Assembly: GCF_004010195.1 (NCBI RefSeq)
Contig: NC_057719.1
Location: forward strand, 47,927,748-47,969,331
Reading direction: 5' to 3'
DNA: 41,584 nt
Source: Chiloscyllium plagiosum
Lineage: Eukaryota
The translations under genes and the position numbers were made by a program. The notes beneath the pieces were generated by a model. That model was not told the DNA's origin, did not search any database, and saw only the letters and a list, made by a program, of their open reading frames with translations. Below, in pieces: positions 6,020 through 41,577 of this stretch. How positions within the stretch are numbered: the first letter of the stretch is position 1; every line of letters starts with the position of its first letter.

Positions 6020-6111
6020 CTTTTGGCTCCAGTGCAAACCATCTTGCCTGAACTGAAGATTAACGCTGTCGTTCTGGGCTCTCTTATTCGCATTATCACT
6101 GCAGCAAACCG
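6020..6111 (-). CDS. tbpl2: TBP-family coding exon, 92 nt: [30 protein letters not shown](S)
   Basis: Matches the TBP/TBPL2 core. Acceptor ttaatag| and donor |gtataa. Followed by a 117-nt intron. Confidence 0.95.
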
Positions 6112-6299
6112 CTATTAAGCACAAGTTAGAACAAACTTAGGTCTAGGTGATAAACAATCTACGTCTTTAATACCAGACTGTAAACATTTTTTAAAAGCTG
6201 CAAAAAAAAAGTACTCTGACTCAAACTTATGAAAAGTTGACAAAATTAAATTGAAAACTGCAGATAAGAAATAATTACATTTGGATGCATAGTTTAAAG

Positions 6300-6550
6300 A
6301 TGAAGGATCTCCTTTCTAAGGTTTGATAAGGAGCCACTTTCTTTCTCTCAGAGCATTGTCAATTTATGGAATTCTCTTCCCTGGAGGTTGGGTCATTGAA
6401 TATATTCAAGGCTGAGTTAGACAGATTTTTGATTGTCAAGGCACAGGGATACACAGAAAAGGGAGGTTGAGGCTACAAATCAGATCAGCCATGCTTTCAC
6501 CAAATGGCAAAACAGGCTTGAAGGATTGAATGGCCTACTCCTACTTGCAA
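6300..6550 (+). mobile_element. Old CR1 3' end fragment
   Basis: Contains tggaattctct..., atattcaaggctgagttagacagattttt, cagatcagccatg and gaatggcctactcct 3'-end motifs. Confidence 0.65.
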
Positions 6551-7574: not shown

Positions 7575-7662
7575 CTTTGGATTATATTCAGCATTTCTTG
7601 CACATAAAGCTATTCTCTTCAGGTCCAATTTGCAGGCCAAATTAACAGTGGAAACAATATTT
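7575..7662 (-). CDS. tbpl2: TBP-family coding exon, 88 nt: (Q)[29 protein letters not shown]
   Basis: Acceptor tctttattttttccacag| and donor AAG|gtaatt. NLACKLDL (Ala) is TBPL2-type, whereas vertebrate TBP has NLGCKLDL. Confidence 0.95.
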
Positions 7663-7894
7663 CTGTGGAAAAAATAAAGAAACCTAAAAGGTTATGTACT
7701 CTAAATCTGCACAAGCATTTTGAACAGTTGTACCCAAAAGTCAAGATCACAAATTTCTAACTAAACTGATTGTTAGTGTACTTCAAATCTCTTCCACTCA
7801 TGCACAGGCAGGTGTACACTCACAAAATGGGCAGATTGCAAACTTTAGCCTCTTTAGGATTGGAAGCAGGTCAGAGACATTCATTAGATTTATT

Positions 7895-10468: not shown

Positions 10469-10677
10469 TTAGTTTTGCTTTCACTTGTTGAAGTTGTAGT
10501 TTTGGAATTGAAGCTGCTAGATATAGTTGTTTCTCTGCTGCTAGCTTCATTCTTTCGGTTTCTTTCCTCTCCTAGACTGGAGGAGGTAGAAAGTGAGGGA
10601 AATCTGTTTTGCTGTTTTTGCCTTTGCCAATGATGTGTTTATGGGATGCTGCTATTTTGAAACAGTTGAAGCGTAGC

Positions 10678-11180
10678 AGAGTCATAGAGATGTACAGCAT
10701 GAAACAGACCCTTCGGTCCAACCCGTCCATGCCGACCAGATATCCCAACCCAATCTAGTCCCACCTGCCAGCACCCGGCCCATATCCCTCCAAATCCTTC
10801 CTATTCATATATCCATCCAAATGCCTCTTAAAGATTGCAATTGTACCAGCCTCCACCACATTGTCTGGCAGCTCATTCCATACACGTACCATCCTCTGCG
10901 TGAAAAAGTTGCCCCTTAGGTCTCTTTTATATCTTTCCCCTCTCACCCTAAACCTATGCCCTCTAGTTCTGGACTCCCCGGCCCCAGGGAAAAAGACTTT
11001 GCCTATTTACCCTATCCATGTCCCTCATAATTTTGTAAACCTCTATAAGGTCACCCCTCAGCCTCCGACACTCCAGGGTAAACAGCTCCAACCTGTTCAG
11101 CCTCTTCCTATAGCTCAAATCCTCCAATCCTGGCAACATCCTCGTAAATCTTTTCTGAACCCTTTCAAGTTTCACAACAT
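10678..11180 (-). mobile_element. Young 5'-truncated CR1 3' fragment
   Basis: ORFs 10963..11175 (KLERVQKRFTRMLPGLE) and 10755..10946 (RGNFFTQRMVRVWNELP), plus the tail. Confidence 0.92.
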
Positions 11181-13063: not shown

Positions 13064-13398
13064 TTTCCATCTGCCACTTCTCAGCCCATTGGCCCATCTG
13101 GTCCAGATCCTGTTGTAATCTGAGGTAACCCTCTTCGCTGTCCACTACACCTCCAATTTTGGTGTCATCTGCAAACTTACTAACTGTCGCTCTTATGCTT
13201 GCATCCAAATCATTTATGTAAATGACAAACGAGGGCCCAGCATCGATCCTTGTAGCACTCCACTGGTCACAGGCCTCCAGTCTGAAAAACAACCTTCCAC
13301 CACCACCCTCTCTCTTCTACCTTTGAGCCAGTTCTGTTTCCAAATGGCTAGTTCTCCCTGTATTCCGTGAGATCTAACCTTGCTAATCAGTCTCCCGT
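13064..13398 (-). mobile_element. CR1 internal RT fragment
   Basis: ORF 13008..13292 reads FVIYINDLD...SKFADDTKIGGVVDSEE. Confidence 0.9.
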
Positions 13399-14319
13399 GT
13401 TAACTATTTCAATAGAGTTAAAGTTCTGCCAATTTTTCTTTCTTCGTCATATTTTAACTGGTACAAGAATAAAGCAAGTTTTGCTGAAAGCCTAGTAGTT
13501 TGATGAATCAATTCAGTGTCTTATATCTGGCTTTAAATAAACATTGGGTCTCGGCTATCTCCTTGATATATCTCGAGAGAGTTTGGGCTGATCCAGAACA
13601 GCAGAGATAAAGTGAGCATGAGGTATCAGAGAGAAGATGGTGGCACTTACAGTGGCAGAATGTGGTGCTTGTTGTGCATTCCTCCAGACAGCTTAGACTT
13701 GGTTGACAATAATTGGACCAGGCTAGCATGATTTGGTGTCATGTCCACTGTTGATCCCAGGGTAAGAAGTCTTGCCCCTATACCATTCTGTTCACCAGTC
13801 CTCAAGGTTTCTGTCTGCAAGTCAGGGTGCCCAATCTTTCTTAGTCTACCATGTCCAGGACAATTACCAGAACCATGCAGAGTAGATTCACATTGCACAC
13901 AGACAACAACTGACAACAATTGATATCAAGAAAATCTTTAAGATAGAGATAAATGAGGCACCAAACATGATGATAAAGAATGTTTTTTTCTTGTTGAGTA
14001 CAGGTAAAGCTTTAGGCACGAAGTAACAGAACAGAAGCTTTTGGAGAAACACAATTAGATCTGATTAATAAAAATTTGTGATCAGATATACATCAAAAAG
14101 TTACATTCCATTGACATGAGATATTAACTATACATTTTGTTTCCTGGGAAACCAAACACAAAAATGGAGACCAATCATTTCATGAAAGCTCTCTTGAAAT
14201 ATGTGAGAAATAACACCACATTTGCAGCAAAAACTGATGATTGGAAGTCTGGATTTAGACCAGTAATAGGAACAACTATTAATAAAGGCATATTAAAATC
14301 AGGAATTAAATTTTTAAAA

Positions 14320-14600
14320 ATCATCAGTAAACTAATGGAAAGTGTCATCAACAGTTCTATAAAGCAGCACCTGCTCAGTAATGTCCAATTTAGGTTCCAC
14401 CAAGGCCACTGCACTCCTGACCTCATTACAGCCTTGGTCCAAACAGCTGAATTCCAAAGGTAAAGTAAGCTCGATATCATTAAGTGTGGCATCAAGGTGA
14501 CCGAGCAAAACTGGAGTGAAGGGGAAATAAGGGTGGAGAAATCTCCACTTGTTGGAGTAATACACGAGACAAAGATGGTTGAAGTTGTAAGAAGAAAATC
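14320..14600 (+). mobile_element. Decayed fragment of the second LINE family (RT region)
   Basis: IISKLMESVINSSIKQHLLSNVQFRFHQGHCTPDLITAL. Homologous to 25620-25890. Confidence 0.7.
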
Positions 14601-14844
14601 TGAGGCAAGAATATAAACGTGCAGTTAGCTGACAAAACAAGACGATTTGTGCAGTCGGCAGAGGGACTATAAATTTTCATAGATCAATTAAATTTAAGTT
14701 TTAAAATCTAGATGGAGTATGAACAACTAACAGATAAAATCAACACTCAAAGAATGCACCAGAAATAACTAGACTGGAGTGGATGTTGTCACACTGCAGT
14801 AAATAATTAGGAATTAACGTTACTGTCACAAGTACTCACGAGTA

Positions 14845-16198
14845 CAGGAAAATCATAGTCTAATGTGGTGCCATAATTTAAGGAAGATGGTAAGGAAAAG
14901 CCAGGGAATAATAAACTGGTGAACCGAACATCAAGTTGTTGGAAGAGATCCTGATGGACAGGGTCTACATGCATTTGGAAAGGCAACAACTGATTAGGGA
15001 TAATCAACATGGTTTTGTGCTTGTGAAATCATGTCTCACGAACACGATTTAGTTTTGTGAAAAAGTAATGAAGAGAATTGATAAAGGCAGAGCATTGGAC
15101 GCGATGTATATGGACTTCAGTAAGGCAAGGTTTGACAAGAGTCCGCGTGATAGATTGGTAAGCAAGGTTAGATCACATGGAATACAGGGAAAACTAGCCA
15201 TTTGGATACAGAACTGGCTCAAAAGATGGGAGAGAAGGGATGGTGGTGCAGTGTTGCTTTTCAGACTGGAGGCCTGTGAGCAACGGTGTATCACAAGGAT
15301 CTGTGCTGGGTCCACTCCTTTTTGTCATTTATATAAATGATTTGGATGTGAACATAGAAGGTATGATTAGTAAGTTTGCAGATGACACCAAAATTGTAGT
15401 TTAATTTAGATAAATGTGAGGTGCTGCGTTTTGGAAAGGCCAATCAGGGCAGGACTTTATACACTTAATGATAAGGTCCTAGGAAATGTTGCTGAACAAG
15501 TCAGACCTTGGAGTGCAGGTTCATAGTTCCTTGAAAATGGAATGGCAGGTAGACAATAGTGAAGGTGGCATTTGGTATGCCTGTCTTTATTAGTCAGTGC
15601 TTTGAGTTTAGGAGTTGGGAGGTCATGTTGTGGCTGTACAGGACATTAGTTAGGCTACTTTTGGAATATTGTGTGCAATTCTGCTCTACTCCCACAGGAG
15701 GGATGTTGTGAAACATGAAAGGGTTCAGAAAAGATTTACAAGGATGTTGCCAGGGTTGGAGGATTTGAGCTATAGGGAGATACTGAATAGACTGGGGCTA
15801 TATTCCCTGGAGCATCGGAGACTGAGGACCAGAGACCATATAGAGGCTTATAAAATGATGAAGGGCATGGATAGGGTGAGTAGCCAAGGTCTTTTCCCTG
15901 GGGTGGGGAGTCCAGAACAAGAGGTCATAGATTTGAAGGGAAAAGGTTGAAAAGGGACCTAAGGGGCAACGTTTTCTCACAGAGGGTGGTGAGTGTATGG
16001 AATGAGCTACCAGAAGTAGTGGTGGAGACTGGTACAATTACAGCATTTAAAAGGCACCTGGATGGGTATCCAGGAAGGGTTTAGAGGGATATGGGCAAGT
16101 GCTGGCAAATGGGACTAGATTAATTCAGGATATCTGGTCAGCATGGACAAGTTGGACCAAAAAGGATTTGTTTCCATCCTGTATAGTTCTAGACTCCA
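14845..16198 (+). mobile_element. 5'-truncated, frameshifted CR1 LINE
   Basis: DAMYMDFSKA.FDK, tttgcagatgacacca (FADDT) and ERVQKRFTRMLPGLE, followed by the 3' tail. Confidence 0.9.
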
Positions 16199-16727: not shown

Positions 16728-19700
16728 GTTTTGGATACTGTCGGGGGAAGATGGCTCACCGGGGAGGGCAGCAGTTGTCAAGATCATGGCACCATGGCGG
16801 GTACTGCTGTTCAGAAGGGCGGGAAAAAGACACGTAGGGCCATACTCATAGGGGATTCCATTGTGAAGGGAGTAGACAGGCGGTTGTGTGGCCAAAACCG
16901 GAACTCCTGGATGCTATGTTGCCTCCCAGGTGCTCGGGTCAGGGATGTCACTGATCGGCTGCAGAGCATTCTAAAAGGGGAGGATGAACAGCCAGTTATC
17001 TTGGTGCATATAGGCACCAACGATATAAGTAGAAAGCGAGACGAGGTCCTGAAAGCAGAATTCAGGGAGCTAGGAGAGAAGTTAAAGTGGAGGACCTCAA
17101 AAGGTAGTGATCTCGGGATTACTACCAGTGCCATGTGCTAGCCAGCGTAGAAGTGAAAAAAACAGACAGGATGAACACGTGGATTGAGAGACGGTGTAGG
17201 AGGAAGGGGTTCAGATTTGTTGGACATTGGGACCGGTTCTGGGGAAGGTGGGACTATTACAAAAGGGACAGTCTACATCTGAACCAGACCAGAACCAATG
17301 TCCTTGGGGGAGTTTTTGCTACTGCTGTTAGGGAGGTTTTAAACTAATGTGGCAGGGGACTGGGAACCAGAAGAGAAAACGAGTAGGCAGTGAGGTGGAG
17401 ACTGGAGACTGTAAGAATTATGAAGATAGCACTAATAAAAAGGAAGAATAGGCAGAGAGCAGGTGAATGCAAAAGAACTGGTGGCCTGAAATGCATCTAC
17501 TTTAATGCAAGGAATGTAGTGTGTAACGCAGATGAACTTAGGGTTTGGATTGGTGCCTGGGAGTATGACATTATTGCTATTACAGAGACTTGGTTGAAGG
17601 AAGGGCATAACAAATAGGTAAACAGATTATGAATAGATGTAGAGGCAATAGGGTAGTGGTGATGGGAGATTTTATTTTTCCCAATATTGACTGGGATACA
17701 CTTAGCGTCAGAGGGCTGGATGGAGTAGAATTTGTACGAAGTGTCCAGGAAAGTTTTCTAGAGTAGTATGTCAATAGTCCGACAAGGGAAGGTCCATATT
17801 GGACCTGGTACTGGGGAACGAGCAAGGACAAGTGGTAGAAGTTGCGGTGGGGAATTTCTTTACAGTGACCACAATTCTGTAAGTTTTAGAATACTCGTAG
17901 ATAAAGAAGAGAGTGGTCCTTGGGGAAGAGTACTAAACTGTGCCAAAGCCAATAATATCAAAATTAGGCAGGAGCTGGGAAATGTGGATTGGATACAGCT
18001 ATTTGAAGGAAGCCTCCCACATCTCAAATGTGGACTTTTCAAAGATAGGTTAACGGTAGTGCAGGATAGGCATGTCCCGTTGAAGGCAAAGGATAAGAAG
18101 GGCAAGATTCGTGAACCATGGATGACAGGAGAAATTGTTCAACTAGCCAAGAGGAAAGGGAAGTGTACATAAGGTCTAGGCAGCTAAGAACAGAACGGGC
18201 CCTTGAGGAATATCGGAAGAGTAGGACAAGTCTTAAACAAGGAATCAAGCAGGTGAAAAGGGGTCATGAAATAGCTTTAGCAAGCAGAATTAAGGAAAAT
18301 CCCAAAGCATTTTATTCTTATATAAGAAGCAAGTGGGTAACTAGAGAAAGGATTGGTCCACTAAAAGATAATGAAGGAAGGCTGTGTGCCAAACCTGAGA
18401 GAATGGGTGAGATTCTGAATGATTACTTTACATCAGTGATCACTGAGGAGAGGAACATGATGAATCTTGAGATTAGAGATAGAAGTTTGATTCGTCTAGA
18501 TCACGTTGGCATAAGTAGGGACGATGTGTTGGGTATGCTAGAGGTTATTAAGGTGGACAAATCCCCAGGACCGGATGGGATCTATCCCAGGTTGCTGAGG
18601 GGGGTGAGAGAGGAAATAGCTGGGGCCCTGACAGATATCTTTGTGGCATCCTTGAATACAGGTGAGGTGCCGGAGGACTAGAGGGTAGCTTATGTAGTCC
18701 CCTTGTACCAGAAGGGTAGTAGGGATATTCCAGCTAACTATAGACCAGTGAGCCTGACATCAGTGGTGGGGAAGTTGCTGGAGAGGGTACTAAGAGATAG
18801 GATCTATTTATATTTAGAAAAGAATGAGCTTATCAGTGATAGGAAACATGGTTTTGTGTGGGGGAGATCATGCCTTACCAACTTAATAGAGTTCTTCGAG
18901 GAAGTGACCAAATTGGTAGAAGGGCTGTTGATGTCATATACATGGACTTTAGTAAGGTGTTTGATAAGGTTCCCCATTGTCGACCAATGGAGAAAGTGAA
19001 GTCACATGGTGTGCAGGGAGTTCTAACTAGGTGGATAAGGAACTGGTTGAGCAATTGGAGACAGTAGTAGTTGAAGGGAGTTTCTCGAAATGGAGAATGG
19101 TGACCAGTGGTGTTCCACAGGGGTCAGTATTGGGGCCACTGTTGTTTGTAATATATATGATGATCTAGAAGAGGGCACTGTTGGTATGATCAGCAAATTT
19201 GCAGATGACACAAAGATTGATGGAGTAGCAGAAAGCATAAGGGACTGTCAGAGAATACAGGAGGATATAGATAGACTGGAGAGTTGGGCGGAAAAAGTGG
19301 CAGATGGCTTTCAATCCAGACAATATGAGATGTTGCATTTAGGCAAGTCTAATTCTAGAGCGAATTATACAATGAATGGAAGAGCCTTGAGAAAACTTCA
19401 TGGGCAGAGAGATCTGGGAGTGCAGGTCCATTGGACCCTGAAGGTTGCTGCACAGGTGGATAGAGCGGTCAAGGAGGCATATAGTATGCTTGCCTTCATT
19501 GGACGGGGTATTGAGAAGAGCTAGCAAGTCATGTTAAAATTATACAAGACATTGGTTTGGCCACATTTAGAATATTGTGTACAGTTCTGGTTGCTACATT
19601 ACCAAAAGGATGTGGACGCTTTGGAGAGGGTGCAGAGAAGGTTTACGAGGATGTTGCCTGGTATGGAAGGTGCTAGCTATGAGAAAGAGTTGAGTAGGTT

Positions 19701-20116
19701 AGGTTTATTTTCACTAGAAAAAAGGAGATTGAGGGGGGGACCTGATTGAGTTTTACAAAATCATGAAGGGCATAGACAGGGTGGATAGAGACAAGCTTTT
19801 TCTCAGGGTGAAGGATTCAATAACCAGAGGTCATGCTTTCAAGGGGAGAGGTGGAAAGTTTAAGGGAGGATACACGCGGAAAGTATTTCACATAGAGAGT
19901 GGTGGGTGTTTGGAATGTGTTGCCAACAGAGGTGGTAGAGGCAGGCACGGTAGATTCATTTAAGATGCGTCTGGACAGATGCATGAGTAGGCGGGGAGCA
20001 GAGGGATACAGATGCTTAGGAATTGGGTGACAGGTTTAGACAGTACATTTGGATCGGCTCAGGCTTGAAGGGCTGAAGGGCCTGTTCCTGGGCTGTAAAT
20101 TTTCTTTGTTCTTTGT
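16726..20116 (+). mobile_element. Near-full-length but disabled CR1 LINE: ORF1 SGNH/GDSL esterase domain, ORF2 APE endonuclease (partly deleted near 17610) plus RT
   Basis: ORF1 has IGDSIVKG...CLPGARV...VHIGTND. The ORF2 start reads CIYFNARN...IIAITETWL, then KSPGPDGIYPRLL, NYRPVSLTS, DFSKVFDKVPH and KFADDTK. Tail is ttctttgttctttgt. Many stops and frameshifts. Confidence 0.95.
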
Positions 20117-23736: not shown

Positions 23737-25341
23737 TTCACTGGATGTGCAGGACAACCTGCCAGAAGTAGCACCAAGATACCTGAAGATGAGGGGTCAA
23801 TCTAGTGAAGCCACCAAACAGGACTACCTGCACACCAAATAGAAGCAGCAAATGCTAAACAGAGCTAAGTAAACTCAAACTACTTAAAATTGGTGAGGAG
23901 AAAGTGAGGTCTGCAGATGCTGGAGATCAGAGCTGAAAATGTGTTGCTGGAAAAGCGCAGCAGGTCAGGCAGCATCCAGGGAACAGGAGAATCGACGTTT
24001 CGGGCATAAGCACTTCTTCAGCTCTGTTTAGCATTTGCTGCTTCTATTTGGTGTGCAGGTAGTCCTGTTTGGTGGCTTCACTAGTTGACCCCTCATCTTC
24101 AGGTATCCTGGTGCTACTTCTGGCAGGTTGTCCTGCACATCCAGTGAAAAGCTGCGCTTTTCCAGCAACACTTTCAGCTAAGTAAACTCAAAACCAATGG
24201 ATCATATCTAAGCTCTGCAGTCCTGCTGCATCCAGTCATGAATTGTGTTGATCAGTTAAACAACTCTTTGTAGAAGCGTCCACAATTATTCCCTTCCGCA
24301 ATGATGGAAGAATCCAGCCCATCAATGCAAGTGATCAGGCTGAAGTTTTCACAGCAATCTTCAGCCAGAAGTCACAAGTGGATGATCCATCTCAACTCAT
24401 GAATTCCATAAATTGTTTGTTTGACCTTTTATTTCACGGTGGTGTAATTATTAGTTAGTTGATCCATGATCTGCATAAGCCCTTCCTGAAGAAGGGCTTA
24501 TGCCTGAAACGTCGATTCTCCTCTTCCCTGGATGCCGCCTGACCTGCGCTTTTCCAGCAACACATTTTCAGCTCTGATCTCCAGCATCTGCAGACCTCAC
24601 TTTCTCCTCACCAATTTTAAGTAGTTTGAGTTTACTTAGTTCTGTTTAGCATTTGCTGCTTCTATTTGGTGTGCAGGTAGTCCTGTTTGGTGGCTTCACT
24701 AGGTTGACCCCTCATCTTCAGGTATCCTGGTGCTACTTCTGGCAGGTTGTCCTGCAGATCCAGTGAAAAGCTGTGCTTTTCCAGCAACACATTTTCAGCT
24801 AAGTAAACTCAAAACCAATGGATCAGATCTAAGCTCTGCAGTCCTGCTGCATCCAGTCAGGAATTAGCTTTTAGATTAGATTACAGTGTGGAAACAGGCC
24901 CTTCGGCCCAACAAGTCCACACCGACCCGCCGAAGCGAAACCCATCCATACCCCTACATTTACCCCTTACCTAACACTACAGGCAATTTAGTATGGCCAA
25001 TTAACCTGACCCTGCACATCTTTGGATGGTGGGAGGAAACCGGAGCACCCGGAGGAAACCCACGCAGACACGGGGAGAACGTGCAAACTCCACACAGTCA
25101 GTCGCCTGAGGCGGGAATTGAACCCGGGTCTCTGGCGCTGCGAGGCAGCAGTGCTAACCACTGTGCCACCGTGCCGCCCACGGTGGCACAGTTGATCAGT
25201 TAAACAACTCTTTGTAGAAGCGTCCACAATTATTCCCATCCGCAATGATGGAAGAACCCAGCCCATCAATGCAAGAGATCAGGCTGAAGTTTTCACAGCA
25301 ATCTTCAGCCAGAAGTCACAAGTGGATGATCCATCTCAACT
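23737..25341. repeat. Local inverted and direct duplication complex with Penelope pLTR pieces
   Basis: 23737-24020 is the reverse complement of ~24487-24767. 23737-23865 is also inverted at 24021-24148. 24021-24397 is directly repeated at ~24639-25341. Confidence 0.9.
24870..25179 (-). mobile_element. HE1-like V-SINE (tRNA-derived), young full-length copy
   Basis: A box TGGCACAGTGG, B box GGTTCAATTCC, V-domain tgtggagtttgcacgttctccccgtgtctgcgtgggtttcctccggg, and a CR1-like 3' end with a taatc tail. Confidence 0.9.
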
Positions 25342-27995: not shown

Positions 27996-28620
27996 AAGAA
28001 TTTACATGCATTTTGAAGGCAATGACTACTTAAGGATAGCCAACATGGTTTTGTACGTGGGAAGTCATGTCTCACGAACTTGATTGAGTTTTGTGAAGTA
28101 AAAAATGAAGATTGATGAAGGCAGAGCGGTAGACGTTATCTATATAGACTTCAAGACGTATGACAAGGTTCCACATGGTAAACTGGTTAGCAAGGTTAGA
28201 TCACATGGAATCTGGGGGAGCTAACCAACTGGATAAAAAAAAATTGGCTTGTGTAGGAGACAAAGGGTGGAGGTGGAGGGTTGCTTTTTAGACTGGAGGC
28301 CTGTGACAAGCAGTGTGCTACTGCTTTTCATCATCTATACAAACTGTTTTGATATGAATGTAGGAAGTATGGATTTGCAGGTGACAGTGAAATTGATGTG
28401 TAGTGGACAGTGAAGATGATTATCTTCGTGTACAAGGGTCTTGATCAGATGGACTGTGAAGTGGCAGCTCGAATTTAATTTAGACAAATATGAAGTGTTG
28501 CATTTTGGTAAAGCAAATCAGGGCAGGCCTTATATAATTAATGGGAAGGCCCTGGGGAGTTTTGCCAAACAAAGAGACATAAGGTGCAGTTGTATAGTTC
28601 CTTGAAATTGGAGTTGAGGT

Positions 28621-29238
28621 TGAAGGAAAAGATTTGCTAACCCACAATAGGCCCACAAAAGCAATTTGGCCAAATTGTACCAGGACACCCAGAATTCCCG
28701 AGCAGCTCTCAAACTGGGTCAGACAGCACACAGACAGTGGAATACGTTCTAAGCTCCCATGGACATGACAGAGATCTCAAAATCCTAAGGGCAGTTTCAC
28801 AACCCAGCAATACCAAAGCCGTACAAAGAGCAGCACAGACAGAGAGACAGCACAGGACAATGGAAGCACCTCACCACTTTAGAAGAGGCTTTAACACCTA
28901 CCTGTCAAGATGAATGGAACCATGATACTGTCAGGATGTTGCATTGTGTGAAGGAACAGGACATTCATTCAATAAACTGTTTTCCAATTAGCATCCTTGC
29001 AACTAAATTACTCCATTTCCAGTTTCCCATTTCTTAATCAGTGACATTGTGCAGCATGACTATAAAACTGGTCTCAGCTCTGGGAGAAGAAGTTGGATCT
29101 ATCTGTGCAGACTGTCAGTTCTGTGTCAGCCTCGGTCAGTTTCTCCTCCAGCGATATCAGCTTGCAATAAACTGTTTGTCAATTTCACTTCGAGCTGTGT
29201 TTTGTGATCTCTAACCTATTGGACAAATTTCTCCGACA
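28621..29238 (+). mobile_element. Solo LTR (618 bp)
   Basis: TG...CA ends with imperfect terminal inverted repeats. TATAAAA at 29061 and AATAAA at 29166. GAGGT/CAGGT flanks. Cleanly interrupts the CR1. Confidence 0.8.
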
Positions 29239-30076
29239 CAGGTAGACAGGATGGTGAAGAAAACATTTGGCACACTAGTTTTCATTGATCAGTGCACAGA
29301 GTATAGGACTTGGAATGTCATGTTGCAGCTGCAACATGACATCAGTTAGGTCACTTTTGGAATACTGCATTAAATTCTGGTCTCCCTGCGATAGGAAGGA
29401 TGTTGTGAAATTTGAAAGGGTTCAGAAAAGATTTACAAAGGATGTTACCAGGGTTGGAAGGTTGGTGCAATAGGGATAGGCCGAATAGGCTGTGGCTGTT
29501 TTCAGTGGAGCGGAGGCTGAGCGAGACCTTGTTGAAGTTTATAAGATCATGAGGGGCATGGATAGGGTACATAGACAAGGTCCTGTCCCCAGAACAGGGG
29601 AGTACAAAACTCGAGGGCATAAGTTTAAGGTGAACAGGAGAAAGATTTAAAAGGGACCCAAGGGGCAGCTTTTACATGAAGAGGGTAGTGTGCATCTCAA
29701 ATGCATTGCCAAAGGAAGCAGTGGAAGCTGGTACAATTACAGCATTGAAAAGGCATCCAGATGGGTTCATAAATCTGAAGGGTTTGGAGAGAAGAAGCCT
29801 AAATGGTGGCAAATGGGACTAGATCAACTTAGGACACCTGGTTGGCATGGATGAGTAGGACCAAAAGGGTCTGTTTCCGTGTTGTTAAACTCTATGATTG
29901 TATGACTGTGCCTTCAACTCTGAGCACCCTCATGTTGCATTAACTCCTCCTCCTGTCTGCAGCAAAAACAAAACATTTCAGCTCCTTTAAATTTTGAAGT
30001 CGACATACTGGACTTGAAACATTAACTTTATTGTTCTCTTCATAGATGTCAGACCTGAGTTTCTCAAGTACGTTAA

Positions 30077-30400: not shown

Positions 30401-30589
30401 CAGTAAAAAGATTTCTGTTTGTGTGTCAGAAAAAGTATACTGGCAACAGCCTGACAAAATAGTGTTCGAGAAATTCAAGACAAAGAAAAAGTGTTCCAGA
30501 AAACACATGCACTGCAAAACGTTTTCAATATTTGGCATAAAGAGGTATAATCTTTAAAAAAAACATATTTTGGGAATGAAAATACTTAC

Positions 30590-31011
30590 TGTAACTGGGG
30601 ACATATTCCAGAACTTTCTACTGGAGTCATTGGTGTTACAGGAGTCATGGGTGTCATTGGTATTGGACAAATAGATGATGATGATTCTTTGATGATTGGG
30701 GTGGAAACTGTATTATTTATTGAATGGTATGACTCCTCGCTGTTACCTTCAGGTCCAAGTGCACCAATAGCATTATTATCCTGGGTTTCTGACAGCATTT
30801 GGCTCTCCTGCATACTTGGCTCCTTACTTGTATTCTCTTCCACATCATTGTCCTCTTGGTCACTGAGAAAACTAAGATCTGCTGAAGTCAGCTCAGCAGT
30901 AGGTTCTTTGGGTTGAAAAAGTTGAGGAGGGTAACAAGGCTCATCAATTTTTAAATCAGAATCATAGGGAATCATAGAATTGTAGATATGGGAATCACCT
31001 GAGAGATCATC
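30590..31011 (-). CDS. tbpl2: TBPL2 N-terminal-domain exon, 422 nt: DDLSGDSHIYNSMIPYD...SADLSFL...PMTPMTPVTPMTPVESSGICPQL(Q)
   Basis: Acceptor atttttcag| and donor CA|gtaagt. Phase joins the 88-nt exon (CA+A = Gln). It has PMT repeats, the PYD and DLSFL motifs typical of TBPL2, and no polyQ tract. Confidence 0.92.
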
Positions 31012-31842
31012 CTGAAAAATCAAAGCATATTTAAGTCACAATTCACACAATCCAAAAAGATCACAGTACTTCATCCTCTTTATAACACATTGACGGAGAC
31101 CTTTCATGGTGTCCTGACGTGCTACTGATCTCCAATGATCTGGAGATGGAAGACTTGTCCTTGGAATATGAACAAGTGGTCAACAGGCAGTGAAACTTTG
31201 AAAATTTGTCCCTATCCAAGTACAAAGGGATCACCCATGAATTGTCCTGATCACTGCACTTGTTCAGAGTAAGTAGCTGCATAAGACTGATCCAGACTAT
31301 TCCAGGTGTGATCCCCCAGTTTGCAGTGAACTGTAGGTCTCAACTAGTAGGGGTTGGTAGATGTAACAATTTTTCTCAGCACAAAGACAGAAGGATAAAT
31401 TCACAATGGATCAACATTATCTAACTATCGCTGAAGAAATATTAGTAATTTGGCTCTTGAGAATTGCAATTGCCATTACATAGTCTTCTGAGACTCAGCA
31501 AGAAGGTTTACAAATAAATAGATATTTGATTAAAGTACTAGAAGTGAAATTCACAGACCAGGCGAAATTTCGTCACGACCAGTTTCAAAACCAGATGCAG
31601 ATGGTGTTTGAGAGTAAAGTACCTGCCAAGTGTGCCAATTCTTAGCTCAATTTCTGACTATTTTTACTGAGACAGGTTTGGCGTCCGACAGTGATGTGGT
31701 GTCAACCAATAAGGTTCATTAGGAGCAATAGAAGGAGACACTAGAATTTCCCAGTCACCCTCCAATTTCTTGATGTGATGGGGGAGTTTCATTGTCTGCA
31801 GCTGACATTCACCAGAAGGCCACAGTGCCTCCACAAAAGGAG

Positions 31843-32050
31843 TTAAAAAACACAACACCAGGTTATAGTCCAACAGGTTTAATTGGAAGCACACTAGCTT
31901 TCGGAGCGCTACTCCTTCAACCACCTGATGAAGGAGTGGTGCTCTGAAAGCTAGTGTGCTTCCAACTAAGCCTGTTGGACTATAACCTGGTGTTGTGTGA
32001 TTTTTAAACTTTGTGCGCCCCAGTCCAACACCGGCATCTCCAAATCATGC
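31843..32050. mobile_element. Palindromic Penelope-derived mini-element (inverted plus direct pLTR)
   Basis: Arms at ~31841-31919 and ~31929-32010. Same sequence as the termini of the Penelope at 39280-40333. Flanked by ccacaaaaggag / ccacaaaggag. Confidence 0.8.
31922..31956 (+). ncRNA. Minimal type I hammerhead ribozyme motif
   Basis: CAC-CUGAUGA-A-GGAGU(GGU)GCUCU-GAAA-GCUA-GUG: core boxes, stem II, palindromic AGCU stem III and a 3-bp stem I. Confidence 0.6.
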
Positions 32051-33989
32051 CCACAAAGGAGGCCTTTCAGTCACCTGTACTGCCGGTTTTACTGCAGGTG
32101 GAGTTAAAGGTTACCCATGTGAAGTTGTCCTCTTCCACTGCACTTTCCAGTGGTGGCCAAGCTGCTTTTTGAAATTAATTAATTTAAATAAAAAGGATGA
32201 CGAGAGGTCATGTTGAAACACCCTAACAGTTTTACCTGCTGCTCCTCAACATGGGGGGTCTCCGATTAGCCCTCTAGCTTCAGGAGCCTATCATTAAATG
32301 CAAAGTCAACGTGGATGCCAATTAAAAATGAGCAACATCGAAAATTCCAGTTCAGCAACTTATTTTACCCTCCCATTCAGAGATAAAAGTTTCAATTCTT
32401 TTTCCTATCCTCAAAAAGTCCAAAACTTACAGCTCACCACCACCTCCTCAAATTAGGAATGAGAAACAAATGCTGATGCTGCCAGGAACATTCAAACCCG
32501 ACAAAAAAAATCTAAGATACACAGACTGTGAAAGGGTAGAGCTCGGTGAGGATAACAGTAGATACAGGGAATCTACTGTTGAGACAAAGAATTAATGTTT
32601 GTGCTCCAATGCTGGTGGATTGTGGTCTCCAAGTATGCTAGTCTTACATTTATGTTCAGGATTAATCAATCATGAAGAGATGGTTTCAAAAATGTTAGGA
32701 CTGAGGAACTTGTTTCAAAGTAGACATGGTATCTGAAAGCTTAATCGGCATGAAGTTGCCCAATTTTCTAATATTAAATGGTGCAGAGACAAATTCCGAT
32801 CACAGGATTTAGAAATGTTTCCATCAGAACAGCACAATATAATGCCAAGGTTTGAAGGTGTGATTTAGTACATAAAAACAGGCCGTTCTTGATTGTTAAG
32901 GTCAAACATAGACCAGAGATAAGACTAGTGTGTGCAAGAGACTTAGAACTGAAAACTGGGAGTAACTTCATTATCGAAATAGTTACATGACTATAAAATT
33001 TATTTATTTTCGGGGATTTTGGTTGAAAACAGAAACAATGTCAATGTCAACATTCAAGATTAGATCAAAGACCTGGATGAATAATGAGTGGAAGGGATGT
33101 CTGAGCAGTAATTAAACAGGATTTAAATGGGTTTTCTTATGATGGCAGATAAACACTTAAGTAGCCTGTTTCAATACTGAAAATTCTCACTGATTCATTG
33201 GACAGAAAAGGCCTTCCCTTCAAGTTTTTCATAGCCGAGAATATGTTTGCAAATACATTGAGTATGAGAACAGCAACACGTGTTAGTTGTTACCAATCAC
33301 TCATGAGTTTCAGAGTACTATTAACATCTAGTATCTCAAGTGATTGGATAGGAAGCCTTCACCCATTCTAGTACTGGACAGCGTTTATGTTTTTCAAAGA
33401 AAAATCTTTAATGATTCTCACAGACTGAAAAGTATTGAAACAGCTTAGCACACGGTACCAATGGCATACTAGATATCTTTATGCTTACTTAGGCCTGCTA
33501 GATTTTTTTCTTGTGATAGGACCAATCTAATTGCAAAGATTTGAAAGTATTAGTAAAGAGTTTTCCAAAATAAGAACATCCTTCCACACTGAAAAGTTTC
33601 ATAAATGGTATAGATAGAGCCCAGTACACATTAAATTGAATACATTTTTCTTTTAAAAATGAATCAGTCTTAACAAAAAAAAGTGACTTAGGTATTCCAA
33701 TCGCATTCCAATTGCCACTCTGCATCAATTTCTTTTCCCCATTAGTACTGCATTCTGTACTTCTTGCTGGGAATTCTGATCATGAGGATCTAAAATCTGG
33801 ATTTTGGCTGTTGTCAGGAGCAACCACTTAATGCATGCTTTTACTAAGTACAAAATTGTATTACCCCAAATCACAAAATCAAAATTAACTGGCAGGATCG
33901 CTTGGTTTTAATTCCTTTACACATTGTCAGTGACCTGTCTCGTTGCCTCATGGTTAATTTGAAGCAAGGCTGCATTAATTCATTGTTAA

Positions 33990-34860
33990 TTAAGATTGGA
34001 AAGATACATTACTACCAGTTGAAGGAATTCTGCATGTGACTGGGGGACAGAGGTATGTATAGCAGATGGAACTCCCAAAAGCTGAGAAGTGATTGTGAAT
34101 GGATATATGAAAAATAAAAAGGGACATGAGAAAAAGTGGAAGGCCACTAAGGTTGAGAAATATACAAACAGGGTTAAAGCAAAAATACTGTAAAATAAAG
34201 AACTTGGATTCTGAGTAGAATCCCAAGATTATGTCTGGCATACCAATCCTTTTTTTTGAGGATAGGTATTTTATTCCTGAATACCCACTGAGCCCCGAAC
34301 ATCTCCTGTTTGTCCCCAGCACATCACCCACCTGTTACAAACCTCTCCTTTTGAAAATGAAGCATCCAATCTTCATAGCCAATGTCATGGGGATGAGTGG
34401 CCTGCGCTATCCTAAACCGGGGCCCGTCCCGGGAAATAAAGTAATGTTAACAGAGCATGCCCCTGACCACAAAAACAAACCGCCCCAATTTGCTCAATAT
34501 GTCCAAGGGTAAATGCAGTGAAATTTTGGGAGTAGCCTGAATAGGAATGGCTTGTGTTACAAGACTGAAAGATGTGCCTGTCTGTCTGACGGAAGTGATA
34601 TACAATTGAACAATAATCAAGAAGCTCAATTACCTTCGTTTAACCCTATACTTTTGCAACATTTTCCACCTGGAGTCACTGACATGATCCGGACCAACAG
34701 TATGAATTAGTCCAGAAATTTCCAGTCACATATATGGTGAGCGGTAGTTTTCTATTGGGATGGCCAGAACGAGACTGAACAACGATGCAAGTTACAAATA
34801 AAACAGATTACATCTTGTGCCCTCGCGATCCCAAATGAAAGGGTTGATTGGAACCAGGAT
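33990..34860 (+). pseudogene. Probable ERV gag remnant
   Basis: Lies between the 5' LTR stub and pol. LPVEGIL matrix-like motif, a Pro-rich stretch and VDWN. Heavily disrupted. Confidence 0.45.
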
Positions 34861-35099
34861 ACCCACTGGGGGCAGAACTTACCTCAGGTGTCCACCCGTT
34901 GACCACTGCTGGGCAAACTTTTCCCGAGGGGACCCTGAAAATGGGGATAGGCAGGCTCCAGCATGACACCTTTGAGACTGGGAACAAGACAGCAAATGGC
35001 TGGCCCTTGCTTTAACTCTTGAAATGTGGCCACTGGGGAGTGGTATGTCTTTACTGTTATCTTGGAGCTAACGTGGGGAATCGACATGCTTTCGTCTTA

Positions 35100-35332
35100 G
35101 CAAAAGGAAAATCTGCAAATCTACGCTGACTTTTCATTGCACTTTTGGTACGATCCACGATTTTGGAGCCTTGTGGGAACATTGAAGATTTTTAACCCCA
35201 AGGAGCAGCATTATATTAATGCTGTTTCATCCAAATCAATCTGCAATTATCAAGATGCTCGGCTTATACCAAGGAAACTGATACTGTTTCCAAGGTTGCG
35301 AGCAAGTGGATGCAGCTGCCAAGCAGACAGCC
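35100..35332 (+). pseudogene. ERV pol RNase H remnant (gamma/epsilon-like)
   Basis: With frameshifts it reads AKGKSAN.YAD...FGTIHDFGALWEH*RFLT...AIIK.SAYTKETDTVSK...VDAAAKQTA. Confidence 0.85.
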
Positions 35333-35636
35333 TTACACCCCAAACTTCCAATCCCATCGAGTCCCCAGCAAATCCCAGTTAGATACAGTATCAGAATGGG
35401 TATGCTAGATCTGGGTAAGCTACAAAAATCACAGGGGAAGCCCTTGCTGAAGGGCACAAACTATGGCCTCAAATAGGGTACTCCCTCGATACTCAAACCA
35501 GAATGTGGGTGATCCCTTCTGGGCAAGTTTGTGTTTCTTCTTTGCTGCTGCCTATTTTAATTGATTATGTGTATTTTGTAGACACTTGGGCAAGGAGGAA
35601 ATGGTTTATACTAAATTACAATGGACACTCAGTGGC

Positions 35637-35750
35637 CTCCAACCTCGTTGGGAAGGACCCTTCCAGGTCCTCTTCACCATCCCAACTGCTGCTAAGGTCG
35701 CCGAACATTCTGCTTGGGTTCACCTCCATCATTGCAAGTTCATCAGATGA
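35637..35750 (+). pseudogene. ERV integrase C-terminus (GPY/F module)
   Basis: LQPRWEGPFQVLFTIPTAAKVAEHSAWVHLHHCKFIR*. The catalytic core is deleted upstream. Confidence 0.9.
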
Positions 35751-36025
35751 GCCCCTTGTTGGGGGAGGGGGAATGATGATGGATGATGATGATGATGGAA
35801 CTTGACCTGCTGTGTGGACTTGCCATTGGTGCATAAAAAGGGACAGTTTACCTCTGCAATCCTGAGCAACCAGAGACTGCGTACCAACTATGCAGAGAAA
35901 AAAATAAAAATCACTGCGTGCCAAGAGACTGAATGTTACCAACAATGACTGTTGCAGTAGTCAACTGCATCAAAAAGATTGAACAGTTCATTTACAGAAC
36001 AAGTCTAAATGGTCTTTACCCTGTC

Positions 36026-37552
36026 ATGGTGTTGTGTGCCAGTTTGATTTCAATTGTGCTATAGGCAACCCTGGTAAGCCTTGTCCCCATTCAAATAGGT
36101 CACACTACGAAAGTGAAATATAACATTTCCCTATCTTCTCTAACAATTTGTTTCTTCAAAGTCACAACAGAATATTTAGCAGGGATGAAGTGGTCTGTTA
36201 CACCCTTACTTCAGCAAAAGGCTGTTTGACCTCTTTTCTTCTCTTGAATCCCAACAAAAGAGTATGGAATGCTACTAAAGTGTTTACCGGACATACCATT
36301 TCTTTTGATTATTACTTATCCCCACCTGCTAGCTGTTTATGGACTTCTTCCAATAAGTCCAGAGTAGTCCATCCGAATTGTTACAATGATAAAGGATGGG
36401 GGTGTACTTACATTAATGTGACCAAGACTACTCCCTGCGTGATGATTAAAATGTGCCAGTCGCAACTGTTCCCCTGTAGGGGCTCGCATCTCATGCGTAT
36501 GCATTGGGGATATAATGTGTCTCTTATCGCTGGTATTCAGGCCCTTTGTGGAATGGGTAATAGCGCCCACCTTCATTAGGATACCCCTAATGGCACCCAT
36601 ATCTTCCCAATTGTGGGATGGAAGGAACCAGTCTGAAACAGTAACCATATGTCTTTCCAAAAGACCTATCTCTTTCTATTGAACAGCTTTCACCTCAAAC
36701 ACTCAGGGCAGCCGGGAAGTCACAAAGACAGGCTCGCTTTTTATTGGGAAGCTCTCTCCATCATTTACACTAAATCTGGTTACTATTTTTTTTTAAACAA
36801 AGGCAAAGCAACCAATTTCCTGGCTCTTAATAAAAAAGGCACTCCCGTGCTGTAGCTGTAGGAACATGGTTCCCTGTCAATTACCTGGTAATGGGAATGG
36901 GATTTCCCTGTCAAACGTTCAATCTCATTGGAGTTCTGCGCAAGTTGGAAGAATCTAAAGGCTTTGAGCACCACTAAGGGTCACTTTCTGGGGTATGCAT
37001 TTCTTAGTATTTTCTTCGTAGGAGGGTCTGCAGGAATTATTAGCCATCAAAACTGAAATTCTCTCATTTGCGGTCTCACCCTCGAGTAACGAGACAACAG
37101 GGGTTAAGGACATGCTTTCAGAATTATGCCTATTGTCCTAACAAAACCAGTATGCCCTTGACTACATACTTGCCAAAGAAGGTGGAGTTTGCGCCATAGT
37201 CAAAGGCAAATGCATCATGGGCGTCACTAACCTCATAGATAACATGCGCACCTTCATCAGCCAAATGACTGAAGGAGCAGGATGGGGAGATTTGGGTTTT
37301 GACTCATGGTACAACTGGCTGATAAATATGGCTGTGTATACTACTATTGCTTTAATTGGTCTTTTTGTTGGAATTGCTATTGTTAAGTGTATTATTGCTA
37401 AAATATTAACTTTTATTGACAGCATCGGTTCCACCCAGAAAACGCTTCTTCTCCATTCAGATGGAGATGAGGAGGAGCCATTGCCACCTCCTACTTCTTC
37501 CTTGGGGGAGGAGGAAGTATGGCAGTCTCTGGCGTCCATTCGGTTAAACTGA
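36026..37552 (+). pseudogene. ERV env pseudogene with a filovirus-GP2-like TM subunit
   Basis: Hydrophobic signal-like MVLCASLISIVL, then a Cys/N-glycan-rich SU and VKR|SIS at 36910-36927. Fusion loop, ISD QNQYALDYILAKEGGVC, Trp-rich MPER and TM helix in ORF 37217..37552. Several stops and frameshifts. Confidence 0.88.
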
Positions 37553-37609
37553 TCTAATTTGTGCCCTCATATCTTATGGGGTGGTCATAGAATGACCAAA
37601 GGGGGGAGA

Positions 37610-38201
37610 TGAAGATCTAAAATCTGGATTTAAGTTGTCAGGAGCAACCATTTAATGCATGCTTTTACTAACTACAAAATGGCTTCTTAATGCAAGTAAC
37701 AGAAAATAACAAAACAAAATGGTTTCGAGGAGCAATGACATCTAACTCTGCTTAAAACTGCTTTCCTGAACTAATTGAAAGATTAGCAAACAATGCCCTT
37801 TCATAGTATGAATTAACTAAATAAGATATGACATTATTAAAGTATCCTAAATTGACCTTGGAAACCAGGGGTCCCGAAGATAAAGAAACGTAAAACAAGT
37901 CAGTTCCCAGAAAATATCATTGGCTTAATTTTATGTCTATTTGTCATTTTCTTACATTTATTGGATTAATTTTGCAATTAAGGCTGTTCTGTTTGTTAAG
38001 AGACCTATAAAAATTGTCAGGGTTTTAAGGTTGTGTGCAGCTTTTCCAGAGTACACAGAGGGGCTTAACCCCTGCGTTGCTAGATAATCTATGCCTGGAA
38101 TCATAATAAATTGTTAAAACTTGCAAAGAAAGACTGATCTGCTAGTGTTTATTTGACCGATCGCAGAACTGAGAGGTCCCTCCCAGGGGTCCAGATTTAC
38201 A
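37610..38201 (+). promoter_or_regulatory. ERV 3' LTR (592 bp) with TATA box and polyadenylation signal
   Basis: Follows the PPT. TATAAAA at 38006 and AATAAA at 38105. The end ccagatttaCA mirrors aaatctgg near the start. Confidence 0.85.
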
Positions 38202-38250
38202 ATCCCAGTTTCTTCACAAAGACAGAGCAGAAATGAAATCAATACATTAC

Positions 38251-38324
38251 CTGGATTGCAGAACAGTGTGTCATGTTAAGAGATTTACATATCCAGCAAC
38301 AAAGCCAGGTACTTTGAACAGCTG
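38251..38324 (-). CDS. tbpl2: Candidate upstream tbpl2 exon (74 nt; ATG at 38274 gives MTHCSAIQ, in phase with the 422-nt exon)
   Basis: Branch-like ctctaac, pyrimidine tract acttcccctttcacag| and donor CAG|gtaatg, phase 0. Only weak similarity to known TBPL2 first exons. Confidence 0.35.
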
Positions 38325-39099
38325 CTGTGAAAGGGGAAGTACACAAACCAAGCATGGGGTTAGAGTGAGGTTATTTAATGAGTTAGCATTTTGAATAGAA
38401 TAGGGTGCCAGCTAAGTGGAGTGCTTAAGGTAAGTGTTGCAGGATGGGGGTAGTAGGTCATTATAGGGCTGGTAGCAAAAGGGAGGTGATGTTGGGGCCA
38501 GAAGTGGGGGCAGTGGTTGGCTGCTGCAACAACTCTGGCCATTGATATATCTGAACCAATAACACTGTTCTAGTTAAAGACAATGTATTGATGAAAATGT
38601 CATCAAAAAAAGGGTTGGTACAAAAAGGGATTTGAATTGAGATACATTGCACAAATTAACACAGGCCACTCAGGCTTTTAAACAAAATGGTAGGTGTCAA
38701 AGGCAACAGGGAGGGATGATTTTTTTTTCCTGTTTGCCTCTTCTTTTGTCGTGAGTTTTGAAAAAAAAATTATTTTTAAGAAGTGCAAGAGGCAGTGGTG
38801 TACTTCCTCAAAACCTGTTTGTAAAGTCCAATTCAAAGTGACTCAGGAAATTCTTCAGGGTCAAACAAAGCCAGGTTTATAACTGCAATTAAAACCCATG
38901 AGAATAATTTGAAACACGTTCACACACACATCCAGACAAGAAGAGAAAGACAAAAGTGGAAATGAGAGGAGTCACAAATTACTTAAAGTTGGGTATTATT
39001 CACATGATCATGAGTCCAGTAAATCTTCTTTTAGTTGACAGCACACACAAGTCCATTTCACAGAAACTGTTTTAGGTCCCTTATTTTAGCAAATACTTG

Positions 39100-41138: not shown

Positions 41139-41577
41139 GTAAAAACAATGACTGCAGATGCTGGAAACCAGATTTTGGATTAGCGGTGCTGGAAGAACAA
41201 TGACTGCAGATGCTGGAAACCAGATTTTGGATTAGCGGTGCTGGAAGAGCACAGCAGTTCATGCAGCATCCGAGGAGCAGCAAAATCGACGTTTCGGGCA
41301 AAAGCCCTTCATCAGGAATAAAGGCAGAGAGCCTGAAGTGTGGAGAGATAAGCTCGAGGAGGGTGGGGATGGGGAGAGTGCCTGCAGGTGTCTCCCCATC
41401 CCCACCCTCCTCTCATTTATCTCTCCACCCTGCAGGCACTCTGCCTGTATTCCTAATGAAGGGCTTTTGCCCGAAACATCGATTTTCCTGCTCCTCGGAT
41501 GCTGCCTGAACTGCTGTGCCCTTCCAGCACCACTAATCCAGAATCTGGTTTCCAGCATCTGCAGACATTGTTTTTAC
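41139..41577. mobile_element. Palindromic Penelope-derived element (two inverted pLTRs) with a 52-bp tandem duplication in the left arm
   Basis: Mirror ORFs 41210..41509(+) and 41259..41558(-), centred on cctgcagg at 41381-41388. 41144-41195 is repeated at 41196-41247. Confidence 0.85.
41284..41319 (-). ncRNA. Minimal type I hammerhead ribozyme motif
   Basis: The minus strand reads AUUC-CUGAUGA-A-GGGC(UUUU)GCCC-GAAA-CGUC-GAUU. Stem I is weak. Confidence 0.55.

What the first reader, a model, noticed from the sequence alone, without database searches (positions are those of the whole stretch)
36907..37552. Endogenous retrovirus whose TM subunit looks like filovirus/reptarenavirus GP2
Seen: after PVKR| the frame reads SISLEFC-ASWKNLKALSTTKGH-FLGYAFLSIFFVGGSAG-IISHQN*NSLICGLTL. 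After one frameshift at ~37084 it reads SNETTGVKDMLSELCLLS*QNQYALDYILAKEGGVCAIVKGKC, then a Trp-rich segment and a TM helix. The hydrophobic fusion peptide is internal and bracketed by Cys7 and Cys51 (36937, 37069). Known: gamma-type Env has an N-terminal fusion peptide, whereas ASLV TM and filovirus GP2 use a disulfide-clamped internal loop. From memory, Ebola GP2 reads ...HNQDGLICGLRQLANETTQ...[25 protein letters not shown] with similar Cys spacing. Inference: this is an LTR-flanked retroviral fossil of the envelope lineage shared with filoviruses and reptarenaviruses. I recall that such ectodomains have been noted in cartilaginous-fish ERVs, so the class may not be new, although this locus or family may be.
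Basis: partly seen in the sequence, partly recalled or inferred. Interest (0 to 1): 0.9.

Follow-up and report, generated by a model that had tools for sequence, protein, structure and literature searches.

The report
Shark retrovirus fossil, Ebola-like envelope
This is a dead copy of an old, abundant retrovirus family in a shark-like genome whose membrane-fusion protein resembles that of Ebola and Marburg viruses, a kinship already published for sharks and skates.

Summary
Window 33783-38201 is a decayed provirus: a 74-nt 5' LTR stub, an unassigned internal stretch, an integrase tail, a broken env, a polypurine tract and a whole 3' LTR. The family has hundreds of candidate copies, and the 3' junction is shared with two other species. 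The TM has a Cys-bracketed internal hydrophobic loop, an HR1 sequon and an ISD, and filovirus GP2 is its best match among solved structures. In a 44-row tree it sits in a shark/ray Env clade (94/87) next to mammalian filoviruses, but weakly (85/47; the AU test did not reject an alternative). Filovirus-like ectodomains in cartilaginous-fish retroelements are already published (PMC11521997). Added here: the loop cysteines are family-wide; the third Cys of CX6CC is absent (0 of 17 aligned copies), so the usual SU-TM disulfide cannot form; and a low-confidence SU model of a relative matches the GP1 core (Z 6.1), tied with syncytin-2 (Z 5.3). Verdict: new member of a known kind.

The parts
33783..33856 (+). 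5' LTR stub (first 74 nt; the rest of the LTR, the primer-binding site and the gag start are deleted in this copy)
   Evidence: 89% over 75 nt to 37609-37680; full 5' LTRs with a TGG-starting primer-binding-like word in other copies
33857..35620 (+). Internal stretch shared by many copies; coding origin not established (possibly very decayed pol)
   Evidence: 77-83% DNA identity to other copies, 931 candidates, 40 scored; no relevant Pfam or PDB hit; no significant match to the pol of locus L029
35621..35783 (+). Integrase C-terminal remnant
   Evidence: Pfam MLVIN_C E 8.1e-5, below the curated cut-off; tblastn with pol-bearing locus L029, E 8e-13
35790..36918 (+). env SU region (start approximate): extra N-terminal domain, then SU core; broken by in-frame stops and a frameshift near 35900
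   Evidence: tblastn with natural full-length relatives P0003 and P0195; stop list
36907..36918 (+). Presumed SU/TM cleavage site (PVKR; not a canonical R-x-K/R-R site in this copy)
   Evidence: sequence; basic residues at the same place in relatives; cleavage inferred
36937..37071 (+). Internal hydrophobic loop between two cysteines (predicted fusion loop), with one stop
   Evidence: 45 residues here, 46 in four filovirus GP2, 39 in Tapajos virus, 50 in an Anolis Env
37072..37213 (+). HR1 with N-glycan sequon, ISD and CX6C (no third Cys); one frameshift and one stop
   Evidence: alignment to filovirus GP2 and syncytin-2; site counts
37214..37552 (+). HR2, Trp-rich membrane-proximal stretch, membrane anchor (about 37325-37405), cytoplasmic tail, stop
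37598..37609 (+). Polypurine tract
   Evidence: sequence; same place in other copies
37610..38201 (+). 3' LTR, 592 nt, TG...CA
   Evidence: 40 scored of 516 candidates match over about positions 6-597 of the query at 81-89%; junction bridged in two other species

Best explanation
A dead, internally deleted copy of a multicopy class I (gamma/epsilon-like pol) endogenous retrovirus family of cartilaginous fish. Its env is of the shark/ray lineage already reported as the retroviral relatives of mammalian filovirus GP2. Shown: proviral anatomy, many copies, decay, an insertion shared with two other species, TM kinship. Inferred: the ancestral Env was a class I fusion trimer cleaved at a basic site into SU and TM; a disulfide between TM Cys7 and Cys51 clamped an internal fusion loop as in ALV TM and GP2; HR1/HR2 refolded into a six-helix bundle. 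Because TM has CX6C rather than CX6CC, its four ectodomain cysteines pair up and SU has no CxxC, SU was probably held non-covalently. A receptor-plus-endosome trigger is a guess by analogy. This copy makes no functional protein.
For: LTRs, PPT and integrase tail. 46 matches from 40 scored of 382 env candidates, long ones 71-81% identical; 76 rows from 68 scored of 2922 protein-level candidates, 68 of 76 with stops, none covering the whole protein. RT, RNase H and integrase core upstream of env in 1 of 4 loci scanned (L029; the RT hits in L026 look like an inserted LINE), and that RT is closest to MLV/XMRV (E 5e-17), then foamy (4e-8), then HERV-K-type (0.23). An open TM stretch of another copy hits filovirus GP2 at E 2e-13 to 2e-8, syncytin-2 1.5e-7, CAS virus GP2 3e-5, ASLV 0.012, MLV 0.03; same order for a natural full-length relative. 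Every named close relative is from a shark, ray or skate. Tree. TM model: Ebola GP2 core first, Z 7.4, rmsd 2.2, 74 residues. Published clade: PMC11521997 section 11 and supplement table.
Against: The filovirus sister branch has only 85/47 support and holding the family with three ordinary CX6CC envelopes was not rejected (p-AU 0.17). In the metagenomic library an unnamed ordinary Env (P0024, 74 bits), Tapajos GP (71) and a lizard Env (69.4) scored at or above Marburg GP (69.1). The window's own downstream piece ranks syncytin-2 second and Ebola chains low. Retroviral PDB chains are mostly short cores, so the scores are not length-matched. The TM fold ties with CAS virus GP2, syncytin-2, MPMV and ASLV within 1 Z. 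No ALV, reptarenavirus or MLV row was in the trees. Target-site duplication is unclear (3 of 4 bases here; none seen in the 2 other copies with both ends). No disulfide, cleavage or fusion was tested.
Confidence: 0.85

Rival explanations
1. The family is one more internal-loop ('avian gamma-type-like') Env; likeness to filovirus GP2 reflects retained ancestral features (loop Cys, HR1 glycan) and slow change, not a sister relationship.
For: Weak branch and non-significant AU test. Loop sequence: z 1.7-3.0 against four filovirus loops, 3.3-3.4 against Anolis and Tapajos loops. Loss of the third Cys is shared with Tapajos and lizard-type Envs, not with mammalian filoviruses. The SU's language-model neighbours are Avian_gp85 and TLV_coat clusters (0.92-0.93).
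Against: Filovirus GP2 outranks ASLV TM by about ten orders of E-value; two trees here and the published one (posterior 0.83) all join the two groups; lizard loop-type Envs fall elsewhere in the careful tree.
Confidence: 0.3
2. The env is an endogenised filovirus glycoprotein gene (or a GP2 segment captured from a filovirus by a retrovirus), so the flow ran from filovirus to retrovirus.
For: Best solved matches for TM and for the SU model are filoviral.
Against: It sits in the normal env slot between integrase tail and PPT/LTR; filoviruses are outside, not around, the shark clade; SU has no sequence match to GP1; fish filoviruses lack the ectodomain (PMC11521997 discussion passage). The trees are unrooted, so direction is not shown here.
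Confidence: 0.05
3. The locus is a co-opted host gene (syncytin-like) or an LTR-derived control element for the neighbouring TBP-family gene.
For: The insertion is kept in two other species and lies about 2.7 kb from an exon-like frame of a TBP-family gene on the other strand.
Against: env carries at least nine in-frame stops and two frameshifts. No regulatory test was made.
Confidence: 0.03

Closest known systems
[quoted passage not shown]
   Same: Ectodomain in the env slot of LTR elements of about 6 kb (6.1 and 7.4 kb for two complete copies here); best viral hits are filovirus GPs; sister to Ebola/Marburg/Lloviu/Mengla with modest support; the window's nearest named relative is a Leucoraja protein.
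   Different: The passages, section 11 and supplements that I read do not describe the fusion loop, the missing third Cys, the SU fold or copy numbers. The published sequences themselves were not compared.
Mammalian filovirus GP2 (Ebola, Sudan, Marburg, Mengla, Lloviu)
   Same: Distal loop Cys exactly 45 residues before the CX6C motif, loop of 45 versus 46 residues, HR1 sequon, ISD-like segment, GP2-like core.
   Different: CX6C-I/M instead of CX6CC; proximal Cys only 7 residues after the cleavage site; long cytoplasmic tail; SU without sequence likeness to GP1 and with an extra N-terminal domain.
Avian gamma-type TM (ALV/ASLV; Henzy and Johnson 2013, PMC3758190)
   Same: Internal fusion peptide a few residues after the cleavage site, flanked by a Cys pair; ISD; HR1 glycan; no CxxC in SU.
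   Different: No third Cys; low sequence score (E 0.012); class I rather than alpharetroviral pol in the one pol-bearing locus tested.
Tapajos virus GP and lizard loop-type Envs (Anolis)
   Same: Internal loop, distal Cys at -45, HR1 sequon and loss of the third Cys.
   Different: Separate branches in the tree; Tapajos is a long branch of unsure place.
Anamniote gamma-type Envs with CXnC (Chen et al., bioRxiv 10.1101/2021.11.23.469661)
   Same: That survey lists a CXnC subtype, cartilaginous-fish Envs and an 'Alpha_FP' character.
   Different: Its figures and supplements could not be seen, so I cannot say which of its clades this family is.

Membership tests
Endogenous retrovirus (class I) | Paired LTRs (TG...CA) with polypurine tract | tested here: met
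   whole 3' LTR, PPT, 74-nt 5' stub; full pairs in L021, L023
Endogenous retrovirus (class I) | pol (RT, RNase H, integrase) upstream of env, RT closest to gamma/epsilon type | tested here: met
   met for sister locus L029; the window keeps only the integrase tail
Endogenous retrovirus (class I) | Target-site duplication | tested here: inconclusive
   3 of 4 bases agree in the window; none seen in L021 and L023
Gamma-type Env (Hogan and Johnson 2023, PMC9967133) | ISD between HR1 and HR2 | tested here: met
   aligns to syncytin-2, MLV p15E and GP2
Gamma-type Env (Hogan and Johnson 2023, PMC9967133) | CX6CC with a third Cys for the SU-TM disulfide | tested here: not met
   third position Cys in 0 of 17 aligned copies (Ile 12, Met 3, Thr 1, Arg 1; 3 of 20 not aligned); absent in relatives
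Gamma-type Env (Hogan and Johnson 2023, PMC9967133) | CxxC in SU (gammaretroviral form) | tested here: not met
   none in 3 of 3 natural full-length relatives
Avian gamma-type / GP2-like TM | Internal hydrophobic peptide flanked by a Cys pair | tested here: met
Avian gamma-type / GP2-like TM | Disulfide between the two loop cysteines | not testable with these tools
   loop region of the model had pLDDT under 50
Avian gamma-type / GP2-like TM | N-glycan sequon at the start of HR1 | tested here: met
   Asn 13 of 20 copies; sequon in 21 of 21 proteins with the distal Cys
Chondrichthyan filovirus-like ectodomain clade (PMC11521997) | Best viral match is a filovirus GP; lies in a retroviral context | tested here: met
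Chondrichthyan filovirus-like ectodomain clade (PMC11521997) | One clade with shark/ray Envs, sister to mammalian filoviruses | tested here: inconclusive
   clade 94/87, sister branch 85/47, p-AU 0.17 for an alternative; published rows not in the tree; 5 of the 14 clade rows are unnamed database proteins
Orthoretroviral SU / GP1 proximal-domain fold (Hotzel, bioRxiv 10.1101/2021.11.05.467493) | Beta-sandwich shared by SU and GP1 | tested here: inconclusive
   model of a relative, mean pLDDT 47: GP1 Z 6.1 (101 residues, rmsd 4.4), syncytin-2 SU 5.3, HIV gp120 4.2; all under Z 8
Reptarenavirus GP2 clade | Groups with reptarenavirus/tarsier ectodomains | not tested
   no such row could be fetched

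The most novel reading that the evidence does not exclude
This shark/ray Env lineage is the closest living record of the whole envelope that mammalian filoviruses took over: not just the GP2 ectodomain but the SU core that became GP1. It would also define a gamma-derived Env type with an internal fusion loop and no covalent SU-TM link, plus an extra N-terminal domain set off by a second basic site in some members, so the GP1-GP2 disulfide was either lost in sharks, Tapajos virus and lizards or regained in filoviruses.
Probability: 0.3. Interest if true: 0.6.

Novelty: new member of a known kind. Interest (0 to 1): 0.3.

Why it matters
The origin of the Ebola/Marburg entry protein from a retroviral env is an established idea, and shark retroelements are its published best candidates. 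This locus adds no new principle, but the family is large and widespread in sharks and rays, so it can sharpen a weakly supported tree. Two traits seen here bear on that story: an SU core that may be GP1-like (whole-gene rather than ectodomain capture) and the missing inter-subunit cysteine.

Tried and rejected
Foldseek with the SU model found nothing at E 0.001 or better in viral models or the PDB; with the full-length model the four hits under 0.001 were Mengla GP, PTLV-1 Env, a herpesvirus protein and EAV-HP Env, at low TM-scores. The extra N-terminal domain got no usable fold match and only lead-level Env neighbours (0.87-0.90). Three attempts to fetch ALV, reptarenavirus or MLV envelopes for the tree failed. 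The internal stretch 33857-35620 has words that recall RNase H (from memory), but Pfam on the window and on 21 frames from 5 other copies, the PDB and a comparison with L029 pol gave no support; the ricin-agglutinin and Ig hits there were taken as chance. No RNA holder was listed; one single-cell RNA run laid 14 reads, 2 of them 99% alike, from about 2% of the run: no evidence on expression either way. No tRNA gene in the window. Alignment A4 held one chimeric gene model (P0207), which drew exostosin hits; these were discarded, and the row may have slightly degraded the SU model. In one search, 3 of 5 extra genome copies dropped out because the anchoring motif was not found, near-identical cluster members were removed, and the careful search did not finish; one search used 44 hand-picked rows of those 122. 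Earlier scan notes held nothing on this element.

Full report
Observation. The sequence is as described: a basic site at 36907-36918, Cys codons at 36937 and 37069 around a hydrophobic stretch, stops at 37054 and 37139, a change of frame near 37084, CX6C at 37190-37213, a Trp-rich stretch, a membrane helix and a stop at 37550. The gene was only ever read with X at its breaks.

Anatomy. A 592-nt LTR (TG...CA) follows a polypurine tract at 37610-38201; 40 scored of 516 candidates match it at 81-89%. Its first 74 nt recur at 33783-33856. Comparison with ten fetched loci shows that this copy lost the rest of the 5' LTR, the primer site and the gag start. An integrase tail lies at 35621-35783 and env runs from about 35790 to 37552 with at least nine in-frame stops and two frameshifts. 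The stretch 33857-35620 is shared by many copies but could not be assigned. One of four loci scanned, L029, has RT, RNase H and integrase core before env; its RT is closest to MLV/XMRV among solved RTs, which makes the family class I. LTR pairs differ by 0.063, 0.073 and 0.090 substitutions per site in three copies and 0.074 over 71 nt here. Contigs from two other coded organisms bridge the 3' LTR/flank junction (38028-38700 and 38032-38662) and reach 26 nt into the 5' stub, at about 3-4% difference, so the insertion predates their split. I did not turn this into years.

Family. A DNA search with env gave 46 matches from 40 scored of 382 candidates; a protein search gave 76 rows from 68 scored of 2922 candidates, 68 rows with stops and none covering the whole protein. 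These are floors. Named close relatives come from Heterodontus, Pristiophorus, Mobula, Hemiscyllium, Scyliorhinus, Rhincodon and Leucoraja, so the host is shark-like; I did not identify it further. In 20 copies (window included) the proximal Cys is present in 15, the distal in 12, the sequon Asn in 13, both CX6C cysteines in 17, and a third Cys in 0 of 17 aligned.

Kinship of TM. An open TM stretch of another copy ranks filovirus GP2 chains first among solved structures (E 2e-13 to 2e-8), then syncytin-2 (1.5e-7), CAS virus GP2 (3e-5), ASLV (0.012) and MLV (0.03); a natural 646-aa relative gives the same order. The top chain is named only 'Envelope glycoprotein'; I take it as Mengla virus from its length and aligned range. 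The distal Cys is 45 residues before CX6C in both groups. The careful tree (44 of 122 rows, 131 columns) puts the window in a shark-type clade (94/87), sister to four mammalian filoviruses (85/47), with Tapajos virus next (85/90); the 122-row quick tree gives the same three-way group at SH-aLRT 88. Against this: p-AU 0.17 for grouping with ordinary CX6CC Envs; non-filoviral Envs score as high as Marburg GP in the large library; loop sequences are no closer to filoviruses than to Tapajos or Anolis; ALV, MLV and reptarenavirus rows were missing.

SU. No sequence match to GP1. A low-confidence model of a Scyliorhinus relative (mean pLDDT 47) searched against 48,161 chains ranked filovirus GP1 cores in seven of the top eight rows (best Z 6.1, 101 residues, rmsd 4.4), syncytin-2 SU fifth (5.3), then HIV and SIV gp120 (4.2, 4.1) and HERV-K (3.8) (second look Z 6.2). 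That envelope proteins fill the top is telling, but the scores are under 8, GP1 is over-represented and ties with syncytin-2, and this beta-sandwich is known to be shared by all orthoretroviral SUs and GP1 (Hotzel, 10.1101/2021.11.05.467493, passages). Foldseek found nothing, and language-model neighbours were retroviral Env clusters.

Mechanism. Shown: anatomy, decay, motif conservation, GP2-like core. Inferred: cleavage at the basic site, a disulfide-clamped internal fusion loop, six-helix refolding, and non-covalent SU-TM association, since the TM ectodomain has exactly four cysteines and SU no CxxC in 3 of 3 full-length relatives. It works like ALV TM or GP2; by the strict CX6CC criterion (PMC9967133, passages; PMC3758190, passages) it is not a canonical gamma-type member, and fits the CXnC subtype of Chen et al. 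(10.1101/2021.11.23.469661, passages and section 7; supplements closed).

Prior art. PMC11521997 (abstract, passages, section 11 and searches of its supplements; four large archives and two files not read) reports filovirus-like ectodomains in retroelements of four cartilaginous-fish genera, sister to Ebola/Cueva/Marburg/Dianlo at posterior 0.83, some between LTRs about 6 kb apart. PMC11089739 (passages) treats such cross-matches as a known filtering problem. Two further Hotzel preprints and PMC12813294 had no shark passages for the terms searched. Five paper searches found no description of the loop, the missing Cys or the SU fold for this clade; subscription papers and unseen supplements may hold one.

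Verdict. Real, correctly read, already known in kind. Interest 0.3. The bolder reading, whole-envelope ancestry of filovirus GP with a non-covalent SU-TM variant, has about 0.3 probability and would merit 0.6.

Noticed in passing
window 5572-7691 and 30586-31035, minus strand: Exons of a TBP-family gene: three frames hit Pfam TBP (E 3.5e-13, 7.3e-9, 1.3e-7); the 149-aa frame at 30586-31035 has a PMTP repeat recalled from TBP/TBPL2 N-termini (no Pfam hit). The provirus lies about 2.7 kb on the 5' side of that frame, in the opposite orientation.
   Followed up: partly
L021, L023, L024, L026, L027 versus L029: Most fetched copies carry the unassigned internal stretch and only an integrase tail, whereas L029 (LTR 66% alike) has RT, RNase H and integrase core instead: possibly a non-autonomous subfamily that kept env and spread widely.
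   Followed up: partly
proteins P0195, P0009, P0019, P0209; L023: A second basic (furin-like) site separates an N-terminal Cys-rich domain from the SU core in several relatives; the Leucoraja protein lacks that domain. It could be a shed domain.
   Followed up: partly
clusters of P0009 (52 members) and P0011 (4 members): Scyliorhinus torazame and Heterodontus francisci have many annotated, near-identical env proteins of this lineage, suggesting younger expansions there.
   Followed up: no
P0036 cluster: Turtle (Mauremys) Envs with two Cys around an internal hydrophobic stretch after the cleavage site, ALV-like by eye.
   Followed up: no
window 23737-24767, 31845-32003, 41193-41575: Long near-perfect inverted repeats (91-98%); earlier scan notes describe Penelope-type palindromes in this genome.
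   Followed up: no
window 1-330, 9388-11180, 13069-16147, 18819-20006, 28016-29907: Many fragments of a few dispersed repeat families that look like LINE 3' parts (family name not tested).
   Followed up: no
tally: Among 119 classifiable TMs of 153, 16 of 21 with the distal loop Cys lack the third Cys, against 4 of 98 without it; the exceptions are four filovirus GP2 and one lizard Env. Rows are related, so this is not an independent correlation.
   Followed up: partly
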